Part shown: piece after piece, positions 2,266-48,512 of the stretch | Layout: every line of letters begins with the position of its first letter | Position numbering within the stretch: the stretch's first letter is position 1 | Assembly (NCBI RefSeq): GCF_057098645.1 | Contig: NZ_JBXSPU010000002.1 | Length of the DNA: 64,000 nucleotides | Source: a plasmid | Strand: one strand, 5' to 3' | Made by a program: the position numbers and the translations under genes | Notes under the pieces: generated by a model | What the model was told of the DNA's origin: nothing | Seen by the model: the letters and a program-made list of their open reading frames with translations, nothing else | The model's database searches: none

Positions 2266-3480
2266 TTAGACGACTGGCGACTTCTCGGTGGCAGCCCCAC
2301 GGAGCCGAAGGAGCACCAGCCCCAACGAAACCAGTACCGCCATCGCCGTGGCGTAACAGATCACGGGCCACGCTGTGTCACCGTTTAAAAGTGCCACCGC
2401 CAATGTCCCGACAATGCTGACTATCAGGCTTTGAACGCAGAAGTAGAACGCGACCGCTGATCCCGCGATGTCGTCGAACTCTGCCAAAGCGCCGTTCGCG
2501 GTAACGGACACCGTGAAGACAATACCGACCGCGACAACCCACATCGGTAGGATGAAGGTGAGGAATGACGGCGAGCCGTAAAGTTCGCCGATCCCCAACA
2601 GGACCGCTCCGCAAACAAGCAACGCCATCCCACGCGCCACGCATCCTGCGATGCCCCATCTGGCGACAAAGGACTTCGCGAAACGGGTTGTCACGATCAT
2701 TACAAGCGCGACAGTGGCGAAGGCAAAGCTGAATCCGATCTCGGAATATTCCGCTTGGCCTATGAGCACACGGGGAGCCGTCGAGAAGAAGACGAAGTAG
2801 GTGCCCATACCGGCGCTAAAGCCGACAGTGTAAACCCAAAAAGCCGGACTCGCGAAGATCGGCAAGACAGATCGGCGCGTCTTGACTTGATCCAGAGGGC
2901 GGGTTTCGTGCCACCTGAAACCCGCATTTAGGAGTGCGAGCATCGCCAGTATAGCCAAAGTAATGAATATCGCCTGCCATCCCAAGAACTCGCCGATCCA
3001 TGCTCCGGCGATAGGGCCGAGCGCAGGCACGAACGCCAGCACCGAACTGAAAAGGCCGTAGATGACGACACCCTCAGGACGGTTGGCATAAACGTCGCGA
3101 ACCGTCGCGAACGTCGCCACCAGCATGGCCGACGCGCCCACTGCTTGAAGTAGACGGAAAGCGACAAAGGCCGGTGCAGTTGAAGACCAAGCTGCTCCCA
3201 GAGACGCAATGACGAAAGCCGTTGCGCCCGCAAGTAGAATTGGCCGTCGCCCGATTCTGTCTGAGAGCGGACCAAAAATCACCTGGCCCACGCCGAGCAT
3301 CACCATATAGAGGCTCAACGTGAGTTGGATCATAGCGGGCGTCGTGTTCAGGATGCCGGGCATCGCTGGAACGACAGGGAGATAAATATCCATCGCCAGT
3401 GAAGCGAGGATGTCGAAAGGAGCCATCAGCAGCAGTGCTGCCGGCAGCGTATAGGCCCACGCGGGGCGTGTGGTGGTCAT
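2266..3480 (-). CDS. floR: FloR florfenicol/chloramphenicol MFS exporter (404 aa)
   Basis: full-length 404-aa ORF MTTTRPAWAYTLPAALLLMAPFDILASLAMDIY... recognised as FloR; 12-TM MFS profile. Confidence 0.95.
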   Translation of the reverse strand: MTTTRPAWAYTLPAALLLMAPFDILASLAMDIYLPVVPAMPGILNTTPAMIQLTLSLYMVMLGVGQVIFGPLSDRIGRRPILLAGATAFVIASLGAAWSSTAPAFVAFRLLQAVGASAMLVATFATVRDVYANRPEGVVIYGLFSSVLAFVPALGPIAGAWIGEFLGWQAIFITLAILAMLALLNAGFRWHETRPLDQVKTRRSVLPIFASPAFWVYTVGFSAGMGTYFVFFSTAPRVLIGQAEYSEIGFSFAFATVALVMIVTTRFAKSFVARWGIAGCVARGMALLVCGAVLLGIGELYGSPSFLTFILPMWVVAVGIVFTVSVTANGALAEFDDIAGSAVAFYFCVQSLIVSIVGTLAVALLNGDTAWPVICYATAMAVLVSLGLVLLRLRGAATEKSPVV

Positions 3481-18205: not shown

Positions 18206-18973
18206 GGTAATGACTCCAACTTACTGATAGTGTTTTATGGTCAGATAATGCCCGATGACTTTGTCATGCAGCTCCACCGATTTTGAGAACGACAGTGACT
18301 TCCTGCCCAGCCTTGCCAGATGCTGTCTCAGATTCAGGTTATGCCGCTCAATGCGCTGAGTGTAACGCTTGCTGATAACGTGCAGCTTTCCCTTCAGGCG
18401 TGATTCATAAAGCGGCCAGTCATCCGTCATCCATACCACGACCTCAAAGGCCGACAGCAGGCCCGGAAGACGCTCCAGCGTGGCCAACGTGCGTTCACCG
18501 AATACGTGCGCCACAACCGTCCTCCGTATCCTGTCATACGCGTAAAACAACCAGAGCTGGCGTGATTTAGCACCGACGTAACCCCACTGTTCGTCCATTT
18601 CCGCGCAGACGATGACGTCACTGCCCGGCTGTATGCGCGAGGTTACCGACTGCGGCCTGAGTTTTTTAAATGGCGGAAAATCGTGTTGAGGCCAACGCCC
18701 ATAATGCGGGCGGTTGCCCGGCATCCAACGCCATTCATGGCCATATCAATGATTTTCTGGTGCGTACCGGGTTGAGAAGCGGTGTAAGTGAACTGCAGTT
18801 GCCATGTTTTACGGCAGTGAGAGCAGAGATAGCGCTGATGTCCGGCAGTGCTTTTGCCGTTACGCACCACCCCGTCAGTAGCTGAACAGGAGGGACAGCT
18901 GATCGAAACAGAAGCCACTGGAGCACCTCAAAAACACCATCATACACTAAATCAGTAAGTTGGCACCATTACC
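18206..18973 (-). mobile_element. IS1 (768 bp), copy B, inverted relative to copy A
   Basis: insB 18221..18724 and insA 18643..18918 on minus strand; terminal sequence at 18961-18973 is a variant (GGTAATGGTGCC instead of GGTGATGCTGCC). Confidence 0.9.
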
Positions 18974-18999: not shown

Positions 19000-20108
<1,109 letters not shown>

Positions 20109-20124
20109 TCAACAGGGATGGATA

Positions 20125-20245
20125 ACTTTGTGAAAAGCAACGCTTCCTGAGGGCAATTTGTCACAGGGTTAAGGGCAACTTGTCACAGAAAGGGCGGCTA
20201 TTTGAGGGTGATTTGTCACACTGAAAGGGCGTTTTGTCACAGATC
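20125..20245. repeat. ori2 iterons (four ~19-bp TGTGACAAnTnnCCCT-type direct repeats) upstream of repE
   Basis: TGAGGGCAATTTGTCACA / GGGCAACTTGTCACA / GAGGGTGATTTGTCACA / GGGCGTTTTGTCACA read directly. Confidence 0.8.
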
Positions 20246-20334
20246 CCTCTCTGGAACCCGCATGGATAAAGGCCTGTGGGCATTCTAAAAATAAAGATCT
20301 AACAACTATTTAAAAAGATCTTATAAAAATATCC

Positions 20335-20356
20335 CCGTGGATAAGTGGATAACCCC
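20335..20356. promoter_or_regulatory. tandem DnaA boxes of ori2
   Basis: GTGGATAAGTGGATAACC contains two TTATCCAC-type boxes next to the AT-rich stretch 20280-20335. Confidence 0.7.
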
Positions 20357-20617
20357 TAGGGGAGGTGATTTTGCAGGCATTGAGCGTATGCAGAATTTAT
20401 GAGTACTGTTCCATGGTGCTTCCTCGCTCACTCGGGGCTTCGCCCTGTCGCTCGGCTGCGGCGAGCACTGCTGGCTCGATTATATCTGTGGCCAGAAGTT
20501 AGACATACAGCCTATTAATTACGTGATGAGCGGCAGGGAAAAACACCAAAAGCCTCCCCCATTACCCCGGAACAAATTGAAATCCGTGAGCTCAGGAAAA
20601 AGCTACAACGTATTGAA

Positions 20618-21385
20618 GGTAATGACTCCAACTTATTGATAGTGTTTTATGTTCAGATAATGCCCGATGACTTTGTCATGCAGCTCCACCGATTTTGAGA
20701 ACGACAGCGACTTCCGTCCCAGCCGTGCCAGGTGCTGCCTCAGATTCAGGTTATGCCGCTCAATTCGCTGCGTATATCGCTTGCTGATTACGTGCAGCTT
20801 TCCCTTCAGGCGGGATTCATACAGCGGCCAGCCATCCGTCATCCATATCACCACGTCAAAGGGTGACAGCAGGCTCATAAGACGCCCCAGCGTCGCCATA
20901 GTGCGTTCACCGAATACGTGCGCAACAACCGTCTTCCGGAGCCTGTCATACGCGTAAAACAGCCAGCGCTGGCGCGATTTAGCCCCGACATAGCCCCACT
21001 GTTCGTCCATTTCCGCGCAGACGATGACGTCACTGCCCGGCTGTATGCGCGAGGTTACCGACTGCGGCCTGAGTTTTTTAAGTGACGTAAAATCGTGTTG
21101 AGGCCAACGCCCATAATGCGGGCAGTTGCCCGGCATCCAACGCCATTCATGGCCATATCAATGATTTTCTGGTGCGTACCGGGTTGAGAAGCGGTGTAAG
21201 TGAACTGCAGTTGCCATGTTTTACGGCAGTGAGAGCAGAGATAGCGCTGATGTCCGGCGGTGCTTTTGCCGTTACGCACCACCCCGTCAGTAGCTGAACA
21301 GGAGGGACAGCTGATAGAAACAGAAGCCACTGGAGCACCTCAAAAACACCATCATACACTAAATCAGTAAGTTGGCAGCATCACC
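20618..21385 (-). mobile_element. IS1 (768 bp), copy C, same orientation as copy B
   Basis: insB 20633..21136 (variant N-terminus MPGNCPHYG...), insA 21055..21330; canonical ends. Confidence 0.9.
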
Positions 21386-46946: not shown

Positions 46947-48512
46947 TCAGTGGTAGTAGCCCGGACCACGCAGGTTTTCATGCTCTGAAGCATATGCCGG
47001 ATGTTGTTCGCCCTGGCGGGATAATGGAAGCTCCAGGTTCTCCCGATGGTGACGCAGCAGATTGTCGATAAAGCGTCTGTCAGGGGCGTTATAGTGCAGG
47101 GCAACGTAACAGGCCTTTTCCAGCCGTTCCGGGCCGTATTTTTTCTGAAGTGCCAGCAGCCCCAGAACTGCACGATAAGCCAGTTCCGGATGGGGTTTTG
47201 CCTTCAGCATGGATTCAACCACCCGGCCTGTGGACGGGCCCGTACGTTTTCCCTGCTCGATCAGGCGTTCCGGTGTCCATGTCCCGTGCTGCCGGTGGCG
47301 CTCTGGCATGTGAAGCGGATTGGTTGTGTGTTTATATTCATGTGTGCTGCGCGGATGTTGCGCCACACACTGCCCCTTGTGCCAGAGCTGTACCACCGAC
47401 TGCCCCGCCTTCAGTGACAGACGCTGACCGACCAGTTCGTGTGGAACGGAGTACCAGTGACGGGCATATTCAACGTGGTAGTCAGGGCCAACCTTCACAG
47501 CTTTGTATTCCGTGTATTCATAAGGTGCCAGAGGCAGCGGAGAGAGTGCTGGCGCATCCAGTATGCGGAAGCGTTCTGCACGGGTTTGATTGCCGTACCC
47601 CTTCATTGGCCGGTTATTCATGTCTGTCAGTAACTCCCTAAGGCGCGCATTCAGCGCCCTGAGCGTGTGGAAGGTTTCATTACGGATGCGGGCAAGAAGC
47701 CATCGTTCAACGATGAGGACGCCGTTTTCTGCTTTTGGTTTATCTTTAGGTTTGCGTGGTCGGGCCGGGATGATAACCGTGCCATAGTGCTCAGCCAGTG
47801 CCTGATAACTGTCGTTGATGACAGGCTCATATCGATCGGCCTTTTTCACTGCGCTTCTGAGGTTATCGGGGATGAGCAGCTTCGGTACGCCGCCCAGGAA
47901 GGTCAGGCAACGGCTGTGGGCATTTAACCATGACATCATGTCCTGACCTTCGCACGCTTCAACGTAGGTATAGTTGGACGCCCCCATTACGGCCACGAAG
48001 ATTGCCACGCGGCGTATCTCACCGGTGTCCGGATTAATAACAGGAACCGTAGGACCACAGAAGTCGATAAAAAGCTTTTCGCCGGCACGATGCTCCTGGC
48101 GCATGGAGAGACGTCGCGTTTTTTTCCACTCCCGGTAGCAACGGCAGAAGTGCGAGTATCCCATCGCTTTGTTACCCGCCTGTGCCTTGTATTCCATCCA
48201 CAACAGTTGCCGCGTCACACCTGGTTTTCTCATTTCCGTATCGAAGTACAACATGTCAGGCATTACAAGCTCTGATGCAAAGGTGTCTTTGGGCGGAAAA
48301 ATGAGTTTCTCCAGCGTGTCATGGGATATATCAGCAGGTAATGGCCATGACAGAGAAGAGGCTTTGAAGCGGGCAAGAACCTCAAAAACGGTTGAGGCGC
48401 TGATGTGTAACGTCAGTCCGATACAACGGTTAGTCAGCTTCTTGTCGAACTTGAGCTGAAGGATCTTAAAACAGGTTTCCATAGTGCTCCTGGATTTTCT
48501 CTTTCTGGACAT
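46947..48512 (-). CDS. istA: IS21-family IstA transposase (copy 2)
   Basis: identical to 28306..29871 product. Confidence 0.8.
   Translation of the reverse strand: MSRKRKSRSTMETCFKILQLKFDKKLTNRCIGLTLHISASTVFEVLARFKASSLSWPLPADISHDTLEKLIFPPKDTFASELVMPDMLYFDTEMRKPGVTRQLLWMEYKAQAGNKAMGYSHFCRCYREWKKTRRLSMRQEHRAGEKLFIDFCGPTVPVINPDTGEIRRVAIFVAVMGASNYTYVEACEGQDMMSWLNAHSRCLTFLGGVPKLLIPDNLRSAVKKADRYEPVINDSYQALAEHYGTVIIPARPRKPKDKPKAENGVLIVERWLLARIRNETFHTLRALNARLRELLTDMNNRPMKGYGNQTRAERFRILDAPALSPLPLAPYEYTEYKAVKVGPDYHVEYARHWYSVPHELVGQRLSLKAGQSVVQLWHKGQCVAQHPRSTHEYKHTTNPLHMPERHRQHGTWTPERLIEQGKRTGPSTGRVVESMLKAKPHPELAYRAVLGLLALQKKYGPERLEKACYVALHYNAPDRRFIDNLLRHHRENLELPLSRQGEQHPAYASEHENLRGPGYYH

What the first reader, a model, noticed from the sequence alone, without database searches (positions are those of the whole stretch)
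20390..20470. Short stretch near ori2 resembling the primosome-assembly region adjacent to ColE1/pMB1 origins
GCTTCCTCGCTCACTCGGGGCTTCGCCCTGTCGCTCGGCTGCGGCGAGC resembles, from memory, the CTTCCTCGCTCACTGACTCGCTGCGCTCGGTCGTTCGGCTGCGGCGAGCGG segment at the edge of pMB1-type origins, where a PriA-dependent priming signal lies. It may be a single-strand initiation (ssi) signal serving the RepFIA replicon. This comparison is from recall and is tentative.
Basis: partly seen in the sequence, partly recalled or inferred. Interest (0 to 1): 0.25.

Follow-up and report, generated by a model that had tools for sequence, protein, structure and literature searches.

The report
Known primosome assembly site beside ori2

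Summary
The window is an R27-type IncHI1 plasmid. The finding lies about 65 nt outside the two DnaA boxes of the ori2 origin of its RepFIA-like replicon.

- **Observation:** the quoted string is at 20418-20466. It aligns to pBR322-type and ColE1 origins far better than chance: local alignment score 54 and 51, against about 21-23 (maximum 37) in 1000 shuffles.
- **Identity:** plasmid F has the same block with one substitution and one indel. F's XhoI site lies inside it, 133 bp from the ori2 BglII site. A paper citing Imber, Low and Ray 1983 uses these two landmarks for the mini-F primosome assembly site. IncF annotations call the element ssiA.
- **Distribution:** the block recurs beside at least five different iteron initiator genes, always on the DnaA-box side. 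In ColE1-type plasmids it sits about 130-180 nt past the origin.
- **Structure:** a closing stem is supported by two compensatory base-pair changes. Folding energy is uninformative, even for the pBR322 positive control.
- **Likely function:** a PriA-dependent DnaB/primase loading site on the minus strand, sending a fork towards ori2 and repE.

Already known; low interest.

The parts
20383..20477 (-). Full ssiA/primosome-assembly-site-like module (about 95 nt). It is the outermost block of R27-F homology. The minus strand is the inferred active single strand.
   Evidence: Eight-sequence alignment with F, IncFIB(K), IncR, pBR322-type and ColE1. R27-F homology ends at about 20476. Klebsiella plasmids match only window 20382-20477 or 20411-20477.
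20418..20466 (-).
   Evidence: Blocks of 15/15 and 19/20 against pBR322-type and ColE1. Score 54 and 51 against a shuffle maximum of 35 and 37. Unique in the window. Most conserved block of the repE-upstream region among 7 RepE-type replicons, 0.87-0.99 mean pairwise identity.
20416..20420 (.). 5' arm (plus-strand reading GTGCT) of the closing stem. It pairs with 20464-20468. The adjacent CGC 20425-20427 pairs with GCG 20461-20463.
   Evidence: RNAalifold picks this stem on both strands. 100% of cells are paired in 61 distinct sequences, and two pairs change on both sides (CG 48/GC 13; CG 49/UA 11/UG 1). 0 of 500 shuffles reach the covariation score.
20464..20468 (.). 3' arm (plus-strand reading AGCAC) of the closing stem.
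20435..20445 (.). Small internal hairpin GGGC-TTC-GCCC, specific to the iteron-plasmid version of the module. The 1-nt deletion that removes F's XhoI site in R27 lies just 5' of it.
   Evidence: The stem is invariant while the loop varies (TTC, TTT, TGC, GAT) among iteron-type copies. It is absent from ColE1-type copies: only 59% of cells are paired over the whole family.
20337..20353 (-). Two DnaA boxes of ori2 (GTGGATAAG, GTGGATAAC on the plus strand), 65-80 nt from the module core.
   Evidence: Identical in F.
20283..20335 (.). AT-rich unwinding region of ori2, containing two BglII sites at 20295 and 20316.
   Evidence: GC 27-32%. Aligned with the AT-rich region of F ori2. BglII positions.
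20150..20246 (.). Four 19-bp ori2 iterons (TGTGACAAATTGCCCT-type, read on the minus strand).
   Evidence: Sequence and alignment with F.
19296..20051 (-). repE initiator gene of the RepFIA-like replicon.
   Evidence: R27 annotation WP_000807689.1. 95% amino-acid identity to the RepE encoded by plasmid F (tblastn of R27 RepE against the F locus).
20618..21385 (.). IS1 copy that bounds the RepFIA segment on the module side. It is context, not part of the element. The end coordinate is estimated from the 768-bp length of IS1.
   Evidence: Direct repeat with the IS1 at 18206. R27 annotates an IS1 transposase in the other copy, at window 18221-18918.

Best explanation
Window 20383-20477 is the R27 copy of the F-plasmid ssiA element, a phiX174-type (PriA-dependent) primosome assembly site lying just outside the DnaA boxes of ori2. 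The proposed mechanism has four steps. (1) RepE, DnaA and HU open the AT-rich region of ori2, and unwinding spreads about 100 nt outward (established knowledge for mini-F; inferred here). (2) The minus strand of the module becomes single-stranded and folds into a branched structure closed by the GTGCT/AGCAC plus CGC/GCG stem (the stem is supported by covariation; which strand folds is inferred). (3) PriA recognises it and, with PriB, DnaT and DnaC, loads DnaB and then DnaG (known for the homologous ColE1/pBR322 site and, from the title of Imber et al. 1983, for F; not tested for R27). (4) DnaB moves 5'->3' on the minus strand, back through ori2 towards repE, and acts as the helicase/primase of a unidirectional fork. 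This polarity is opposite to that in ColE1, where the same strand of the module points away from the origin. The site is probably auxiliary rather than essential and redundant with DnaA-mediated DnaB loading at the adjacent DnaA boxes, as has been proposed for pBR322.
For: Locus: the window is 100% identical to R27 across repE, ori2 and the module. Identity with F: R27 and F differ in the module by 1 substitution and 1 indel, and it is the last conserved block.

Link to the mapped F site: F's XhoI site (record position 48062) is inside the module and the BglII site (48195) is 133 bp away in the AT-rich region. [quoted passage not shown] 1983 in PMC4627060. RepFIA annotation lists ssiA upstream of oriV-2/repE (PMC4398462).

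Homology to ColE1/pMB1: score 54 and 51 against a shuffle maximum of 35 and 37. In 10 of 10 ColE1-type loci with an RNAI hit, the module lies 490-630 nt 5' of RNAI on the same strand, which is about 130-180 nt past the origin. [quoted passage not shown]

Strand: the window plus strand corresponds to the pBR322 top strand, and the lagging-strand template in pBR322 is the bottom strand, so the window minus strand should be active. The XhoI-to-BglII direction independently gives the same strand. G.T wobbles in the predicted helices fall on the minus strand and would be C.A mismatches on the plus strand.

Selection: the core is the most conserved part of the repE-upstream region. The module sits 270-490 bp upstream of five different Rep_3-type initiators in the same relative orientation.

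Structure: the closing stem is 100% paired in 61 distinct sequences with two double-compensatory pairs.
Against: No functional test was possible. The primary papers that map the F and pBR322 sites (Imber 1983; Nomura 1991; Marians 1982) are not in the library, so the match to the mapped sites rests on restriction landmarks, secondary citations and my own recollection.

The predicted folding energy of either strand is no better than shuffles: z about 0 for R27 and -1.3/-0.5 for F. This is equally true of the pBR322 positive control.

The covariation amounts to only about 2-3 independent evolutionary events. The loci were retrieved with a pattern that fixes 21 core positions, which inflates apparent conservation there.

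The site lies outside the minimal ori2, and from my own knowledge mini-F is maintained without PriA, so any role is non-essential. The RepFIA region of R27 is itself dispensable for replication (PMC4853401).
Confidence: 0.8

Rival explanations
1. The block is a conserved sequence island without a replication role in R27. It could be a fossil of past recombination between ColE1-type and iteron-type plasmids that now serves only as a homology patch where replicon modules are exchanged.
For: Homology breakpoints coincide with its edges. R27-F homology stops at 20476/20477. IncFIB(K)-type plasmids share only the 67-96 nt of the module with R27. The element is outside the minimal origin, and the whole RepFIA region of R27 is dispensable (PMC4853401).
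Against: It keeps a constant position and orientation next to at least five different initiator genes. It is better conserved than its flanks, including between R27 and F, a pair that was not selected through the search pattern. Its stem is maintained by compensatory changes. The F copy was identified experimentally as a primosome assembly site (title of Imber et al. 1983).
Confidence: 0.08
2. The module is a priming signal, but the active strand in RepFIA is the plus strand. It would then serve as the lagging-strand template site for a fork leaving ori2 away from repE, which is the same geometry relative to the origin as in ColE1.
For: In ColE1 the site lies ahead of a fork leaving the origin. 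If geometry rather than strand were conserved, the plus strand would be used. The closing stem can form on either strand.
Against: Primosome assembly sites are strand-specific, and the sequence homologous to the pBR322 lagging-template strand is the window minus strand. The direction attributed to Imber et al., XhoI towards BglII, also gives the minus strand. Wobble pairs favour minus-strand folding.
Confidence: 0.07
3. The block acts as double-stranded DNA, as a binding site for a host or plasmid protein or as a transcription signal, or it is part of a small gene.
For: Near-invariant boxes of 15 nt could be protein recognition sequences. A 45-codon ORF (20365-20502, plus strand) overlaps the block.
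Against: Homologues differ by 1-nt indels inside the ORF, which rules out coding. No promoter or terminator signal exceeds chance. There is no Rfam match. No direct or inverted repeat typical of a regulator site is present, and no iteron-like sequence occurs in the block. Compensatory changes point to intrastrand pairing.
Confidence: 0.04

Closest known systems
F plasmid ssiA / mini-F primosome assembly site near ori2 (Imber, Low and Ray 1983, PNAS 80:7132; Nomura et al. 1991, Gene 108:15; annotated as ssiA in RepFIA of pEC958, PMC4398462)
   Same: Orthologous sequence with 1 substitution and 1 indel across the module. Same position outside the DnaA boxes of ori2 and same orientation relative to repE.
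   Different: R27 has lost the XhoI site (CCCTCGAG to CCC-CGAG). Sequence beyond the module is unrelated to F, so ori1, resD and ccd are missing and an IS1 lies 140 bp away. No experiment has been done on the R27 copy as far as the searched literature shows.
ColE1/pMB1 (pBR322) ssiA, the n'-pas on the lagging-strand template about 150 nt downstream of ori
   Same: About 95 nt of colinear homology with two near-identical boxes and a closing stem conserved by compensatory changes. A DnaA box lies close by (PMC3640518).
   Different: The replicon type differs: RNA II/Pol I-primed rather than RepE/iteron. The central 20 nt differ, and the GGGC-NNN-GCCC hairpin occurs only in the iteron type. Polarity relative to the origin is inverted: in ColE1 the active strand points away from ori, in RepFIA towards ori2.
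phiX174 primosome assembly site (the prototype PriA/n' recognition hairpin)
   Same: The presumed mechanism: a folded single strand that mimics an abandoned fork, is bound by PriA and leads to DnaB/DnaG loading (PMC5778457).
   Different: I did not test sequence similarity to phiX174 and none is expected from established knowledge. The phiX site is a phage complementary-strand origin, not an accessory site beside a duplex plasmid origin.
G4-type ssi (G-sites) downstream of oriR in R1/R100 and the Frpo/ssiD-type signals in conjugative leading regions
   Same: Single-strand initiation signals placed a few hundred nt from a plasmid origin and exposed by unwinding.
   Different: Those are recognised directly by primase or RNA polymerase, not by PriA (my own knowledge). 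No sequence relationship was examined here.

Membership tests
F-plasmid ssiA (RepFIA primosome assembly site) | Orthologous sequence at the same place relative to ori2 and repE | tested here: met
   The module differs from F by 1 substitution and 1 indel. It flanks the same DnaA boxes, AT-rich region and iterons.
F-plasmid ssiA (RepFIA primosome assembly site) | Coincides with the experimentally mapped site (landmarks XhoI and BglII of oriS) | tested here: inconclusive
   F's XhoI site lies inside the module and BglII is 133 bp away, matching the description that cites Imber 1983. The primary paper with the mapped limits could not be read.
phiX174-type primosome assembly site (n'-pas, PriA-dependent ssi) | Strand-specific stimulation of PriA (n'/factor Y) ATPase by the single strand | not testable with these tools
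   This needs a biochemical assay.
phiX174-type primosome assembly site (n'-pas, PriA-dependent ssi) | Rifampicin-resistant complementary-strand synthesis that depends on PriA, DnaT, DnaB, DnaC and DnaG, on an origin-defective M13 clone | not testable with these tools
   This needs an in vivo or in vitro assay.
phiX174-type primosome assembly site (n'-pas, PriA-dependent ssi) | Folded (hairpin or branched) single-strand structure | tested here: inconclusive
   The minimum free energy is no better than shuffles for R27, F or the pBR322 control. A closing stem is 100% paired in 61 sequences with 2 compensatory pairs.
ColE1/pMB1 ssiA | Significant sequence homology to the block 130-180 nt downstream of the ColE1-type origin | tested here: met
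   Score 54 and 51, with 0 of 1000 shuffles as high. About 95 nt align. Constant position relative to RNAI in 10 of 10 loci.
ColE1/pMB1 ssiA | Located on the lagging-strand template of the fork leaving the origin | tested here: not met
   In RepFIA-type replicons the homologous strand points towards the origin, not away from it. The element works like ssiA but is deployed with the opposite polarity.

The most novel reading that the evidence does not exclude
The roughly 95-nt primosome-assembly module is a portable cassette. It is shared, with mosaic breakpoints at its edges, by ColE1-type plasmids and by at least five different iteron (Rep_3) replicons of Enterobacterales (IncFIA, IncFIB(K)-type, IncR and others). 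In the iteron replicons it is always installed with its polarity pointing into the origin, where it may set the direction of replication. Its breadth and inverted polarity may not have been described systematically.
Probability: 0.2. Interest if true: 0.3.

Novelty: already known. Interest (0 to 1): 0.1.

Why it matters
It matters little as a discovery. The element was mapped in F in 1983, named ssiA in 1991 and is annotated in IncF plasmids. The R27 RepFIA-like replicon has been known to be homologous to F since 1988.

The practical value is for annotation. This unannotated intergenic block in IncHI1, IncFIA, IncFIB(K) and IncR plasmids can be labelled as an ssiA-type primosome assembly site. 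Its minus-strand polarity predicts the direction of the fork started at ori2.

The survey adds a modest point. The same module accompanies several unrelated initiators and ColE1-type origins with opposite polarity, and its edges are recombination breakpoints. That is relevant to how plasmid replicons are assembled from modules.

Tried and rejected
- **Folding energy as a test of hairpin potential:** z-scores were about 0 for both strands of R27, F and the pBR322 positive control. I rejected it as non-discriminating, not as evidence against function.
- **RNA families:** an Rfam scan of 19900-20700 at E<=1 found nothing.
- **Promoter and terminator scan:** it found only the repE promoter and one weak terminator-like site, at chance level.
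- **Coding potential:** the 45-codon ORF 20365-20502 is rejected because homologues carry 1-nt indels.
- **Primary literature:** Imber et al. 1983 could not be read by DOI or PMC id, and the supplementary annotated sequence of PMC3167613 is not held. Searches for the published coordinates of the pBR322 factor Y site gave nothing usable.
- **Alternative 5' helix** (alignment columns 11-15 with 32-36): it is 94% paired but shows only wobble changes and no compensatory change. I kept it only as a possible alternative conformation.
- **Internal GGGC/GCCC hairpin as a family-wide feature:** rejected, because it exists only in the iteron-type copies.
- **Chance hits:** three genome hits to the search pattern (L027, L075, L107) were unrelated chromosomal matches and were dropped.

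Full report
**Where the finding lies.** The window matches the IncHI1 plasmid R27 (NC_002305) at 100% identity over 20040-20620, and matches many pHCM1-like plasmids equally well. The finding lies in the RepFIA-like replicon of R27. Reading the plus strand from left to right, the layout is:

- incC repeats at 19107-19296
- repE on the minus strand at 19296-20051
- four ori2 iterons at about 20150-20246
- the AT-rich region at about 20283-20335 (GC 27-32%)
- two DnaA boxes at 20337-20353
- the GC-rich segment of the finding (68% GC at 20410-20469)
- about 140 nt of other sequence, then an IS1 starting at 20618. A second IS1 in direct orientation starts at 18206.

**Checking the observation.** The quoted 49-mer is at 20418-20466 and is unique in the window.

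I fetched a pBR322-type origin (L003; its plus strand is the pBR322 top strand; NdeI and AflIII landmarks give pBR322 coordinate = L003 position + 1647) and ColE1 itself (L004). BLAST gives two colinear blocks, 15/15 and 19/20 (18/20 in ColE1), whose spacing differs by one base. Smith-Waterman scores are 54 and 51. In 1000 dinucleotide-preserving shuffles the means are 20.9 and 22.9 and the maxima 35 and 37.

The homology is also longer than noticed. An upstream block (GNGCGTAAGNAGAA...) aligns as well, giving a module of about 95 nt, window 20383-20477.

**What it is.** Aligned with plasmid F (NC_002483), the R27 segment differs by one substitution and one single-base deletion. It is the last block of R27-F homology, which stops at 20476/20477.

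In F the block contains the XhoI site (record position 48062), 133 bp from the BglII site in the AT-rich part of ori2. [quoted passage not shown] The pEC958 annotation paper lists 'ssiA (single strand initiation)' upstream of oriV-2 and repE in RepFIA (PMC4398462). Nomura et al. 1991 (cited) is the paper that named the ssi signals of F.

I could not read the primary papers. The exact mapped limits therefore remain a matter of landmarks, secondary citation and my recollection.

**The ColE1 side.** In pBR322 coordinates the core is about 2358-2407, which is 130-180 nt beyond the RNA/DNA switch at 2535 (a coordinate from my own knowledge) and 32 nt from the DnaA box. PMC3640518 states that a DnaA box lies close to the n'-pas. 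PMC3167613 states that ssiA, the lagging-strand primosome site, is retained in pUC-type constructs. From my own knowledge of vector construction, pUC vectors keep pBR322 only from the HaeII site at about 2352 towards the origin.

In 10 of 10 ColE1-type loci with an Rfam RNAI hit, the module lies 490-630 nt 5' of RNAI on the same strand, so its position relative to the origin is constant.

**Distribution.** A distant BLAST of 20240-20500 against plasmids returned several classes of hit:

- whole-length hits in R27-like plasmids
- F-like hits ending at 20476
- IncR-type hits covering 20312-20498
- Klebsiella plasmids that share only the module (20382-20477 or 20411-20477)

In the annotated examples the module lies about 275-340 bp upstream of a RepB/Rep_3-family initiator gene, in the same relative orientation as in R27.

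A genome-collection scan with CTCGCTCACT N18-34 CTGCGGCGAGC gave 102 loci. After three chance hits were removed, these gave 80 distinct modules. They fall into three groups:

- a ColE1 type (..CCGCT...AGCGG)
- an iteron type (..GTGCT...AGCAC)
- two intermediates, L011 and L109

Every iteron-type locus with enough flank except L008 has a Rep_3-type initiator 270-490 bp away on the opposite strand. There are at least five initiator types: RepE, two Klebsiella Rep types, IncR Rep, and one only 37% identical to these.

Among seven RepE-type replicons the module core is the best conserved stretch of the whole repE-upstream region. Mean pairwise identity is 0.87-0.99, against 0.35-0.73 and 0.43-0.57 in its flanks. 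One caveat applies: 21 core positions were fixed by the search pattern. The R27-F pair, found independently of that pattern, shows the same picture.

**Structure.** Minimum-free-energy folding is uninformative. The z-score is about 0 for both R27 strands, -1.3 and -0.5 for F, and about -0.1 for the experimentally validated pBR322 site.

Comparative analysis is more useful. RNAalifold on 80 modules selects, on either strand, a stem that closes the core: NNGCT with AGCNN, plus CGC with GCG. On 61 distinct sequences written in minus-strand orientation (A3), this helix is 100% paired. Two of its pairs change on both sides (C-G 48 / G-C 13; C-G 49 / T-A 11 / T.G 1). 0 of 500 shuffles reach the observed covariation score, and slid controls are much lower. 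This corresponds to only two or three independent events, so it is supportive rather than decisive.

A small GGGC-NNN-GCCC hairpin with a variable loop exists only in the iteron type. An alternative 5' helix is 94% paired but varies only by wobble. All G.T wobbles fall on the minus strand and would be C.A mismatches on the plus strand. This is a weak hint about which strand folds.

**Mechanism.** Two independent arguments identify the window minus strand as the active one. First, it is the strand homologous to the pBR322 bottom strand, which is the displaced lagging-strand template. Second, the XhoI-to-BglII fork direction attributed to Imber et al. requires a lagging-strand template running 5'->3' from the module into ori2.

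The likely sequence of events is as follows. RepE, DnaA and HU open ori2, and unwinding reaches the module. The minus strand folds. PriA, with PriB, DnaT and DnaC, loads DnaB and DnaG; the general mechanism is reviewed in PMC5778457. DnaB then travels through ori2 towards repE.

This polarity is the reverse of ColE1, where the same strand points away from the origin. The R27 element therefore works like ColE1 ssiA but fails the ColE1-specific criterion of geometry.

The role is probably auxiliary. The module lies outside the minimal ori2. DnaA boxes are adjacent, as in pBR322, where DnaA can substitute for primosome assembly (Seufert and Messer 1987, cited in PMC3640518). R27 replicates without its RepFIA region (PMC4853401).

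**Rivals.** I considered three alternatives:

- A functionless conserved patch used only as a recombination junction. The breakpoints at its edges favour this. Constant placement, higher conservation than the flanks, compensatory pairing and the F experiment argue against it.
- Activity of the plus strand. Homology, the cited fork direction and the wobble pattern argue against it.
- A duplex protein site, transcription signal or small gene. Indels in the overlapping ORF, no promoter or terminator signal above chance and no Rfam hit argue against it.

**Verdict.** The element is the already known F-type ssiA primosome assembly site, here in its R27 copy. Interest is low. The one mildly new aspect is the breadth of the module across replicon types, together with its inverted polarity in iteron plasmids.

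Noticed in passing
window 20477-20617: The 140 nt between the module and IS1 are not F-like. The first ~20 nt (to 20498) match IncR-type plasmids. Positions 20531-20617 translate to ...[18 protein letters not shown], which from my own knowledge looks like the N-terminal part of an IS3-family orfA transposase, cut off by the IS1 end at 20618.
   Followed up: partly
window 18206-18973 and 20618-21385: Two IS1 copies in direct orientation bracket the 1.6-kb incC-repE-ori2-ssiA segment, so it looks like a composite-transposon-like insert. The first 300 nt of the two copies are only 91% identical, so they are different IS1 variants.
   Followed up: partly
window 20476/20477; L005 3001-3097; L006 3001-3068: Homology breakpoints between replicon types fall at the edges of the module. 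R27-F similarity ends there, and Klebsiella plasmids with two other Rep types share only the 67-96 nt of the module with R27. In those plasmids a umuDC operon ends a few nt beyond it.
   Followed up: partly
window 20433-20434, against F L002 3063-3068: A single-base deletion in R27 destroys the XhoI site (CTCGAG) that marks the F element. IncFIB(K)-type copies have CGCGGG at this place. The junction between the left box and the small hairpin therefore tolerates 1-nt length changes.
   Followed up: yes
L024, L035, L050, L060, L093, L099 and relatives (L045, L052, L057, L062, L068, L101, L105): A distinct module variant (..CTCGCCCACTCGCTCACTAACGTTCGGTCGCTGGGGCTGCGGCGAGCGG..) occurs nearly identically on short contigs of unrelated taxa (Flagellimonas, Clostridium, Bradyrhizobium, Micromonospora, Corallococcus, Rhizobium). 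It probably comes from a laboratory vector or reagent contaminant with a non-pMB1 ColE1-family origin. No RNAI hit was found in L024 or L052.
   Followed up: no
L022 (Streptomyces marokkonensis), L059 (Nitrolancea hollandica): Short contigs carry a module identical to that of plasmid F over the 145 nt compared, most likely BAC or fosmid vector (oriS) contamination in these assemblies. Many pUC-type copies in Streptomyces, Paracoccus and MAG contigs look like vector contamination too.
   Followed up: no
L008 (Enterobacter hormaechei pEh24_1) 3001-3095: Here the module lies about 540 nt after sopA-sopB, with no detectable Rep_3 gene or DnaA box nearby and an IS26 about 770 nt downstream. It may be an orphan or rearranged copy.
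   Followed up: no
R27 record 159190-162981 (L001 5599-8581; just right of the IS1 in the window): The R27 annotation shows an Hha/YmoA-family gene, a tyrosine recombinase and a Tus-like 'DNA replication terminus site-binding protein' gene close to the RepFIA segment. A plasmid-borne Tus next to a unidirectional origin could be relevant to fork direction. I did not examine it.
   Followed up: no
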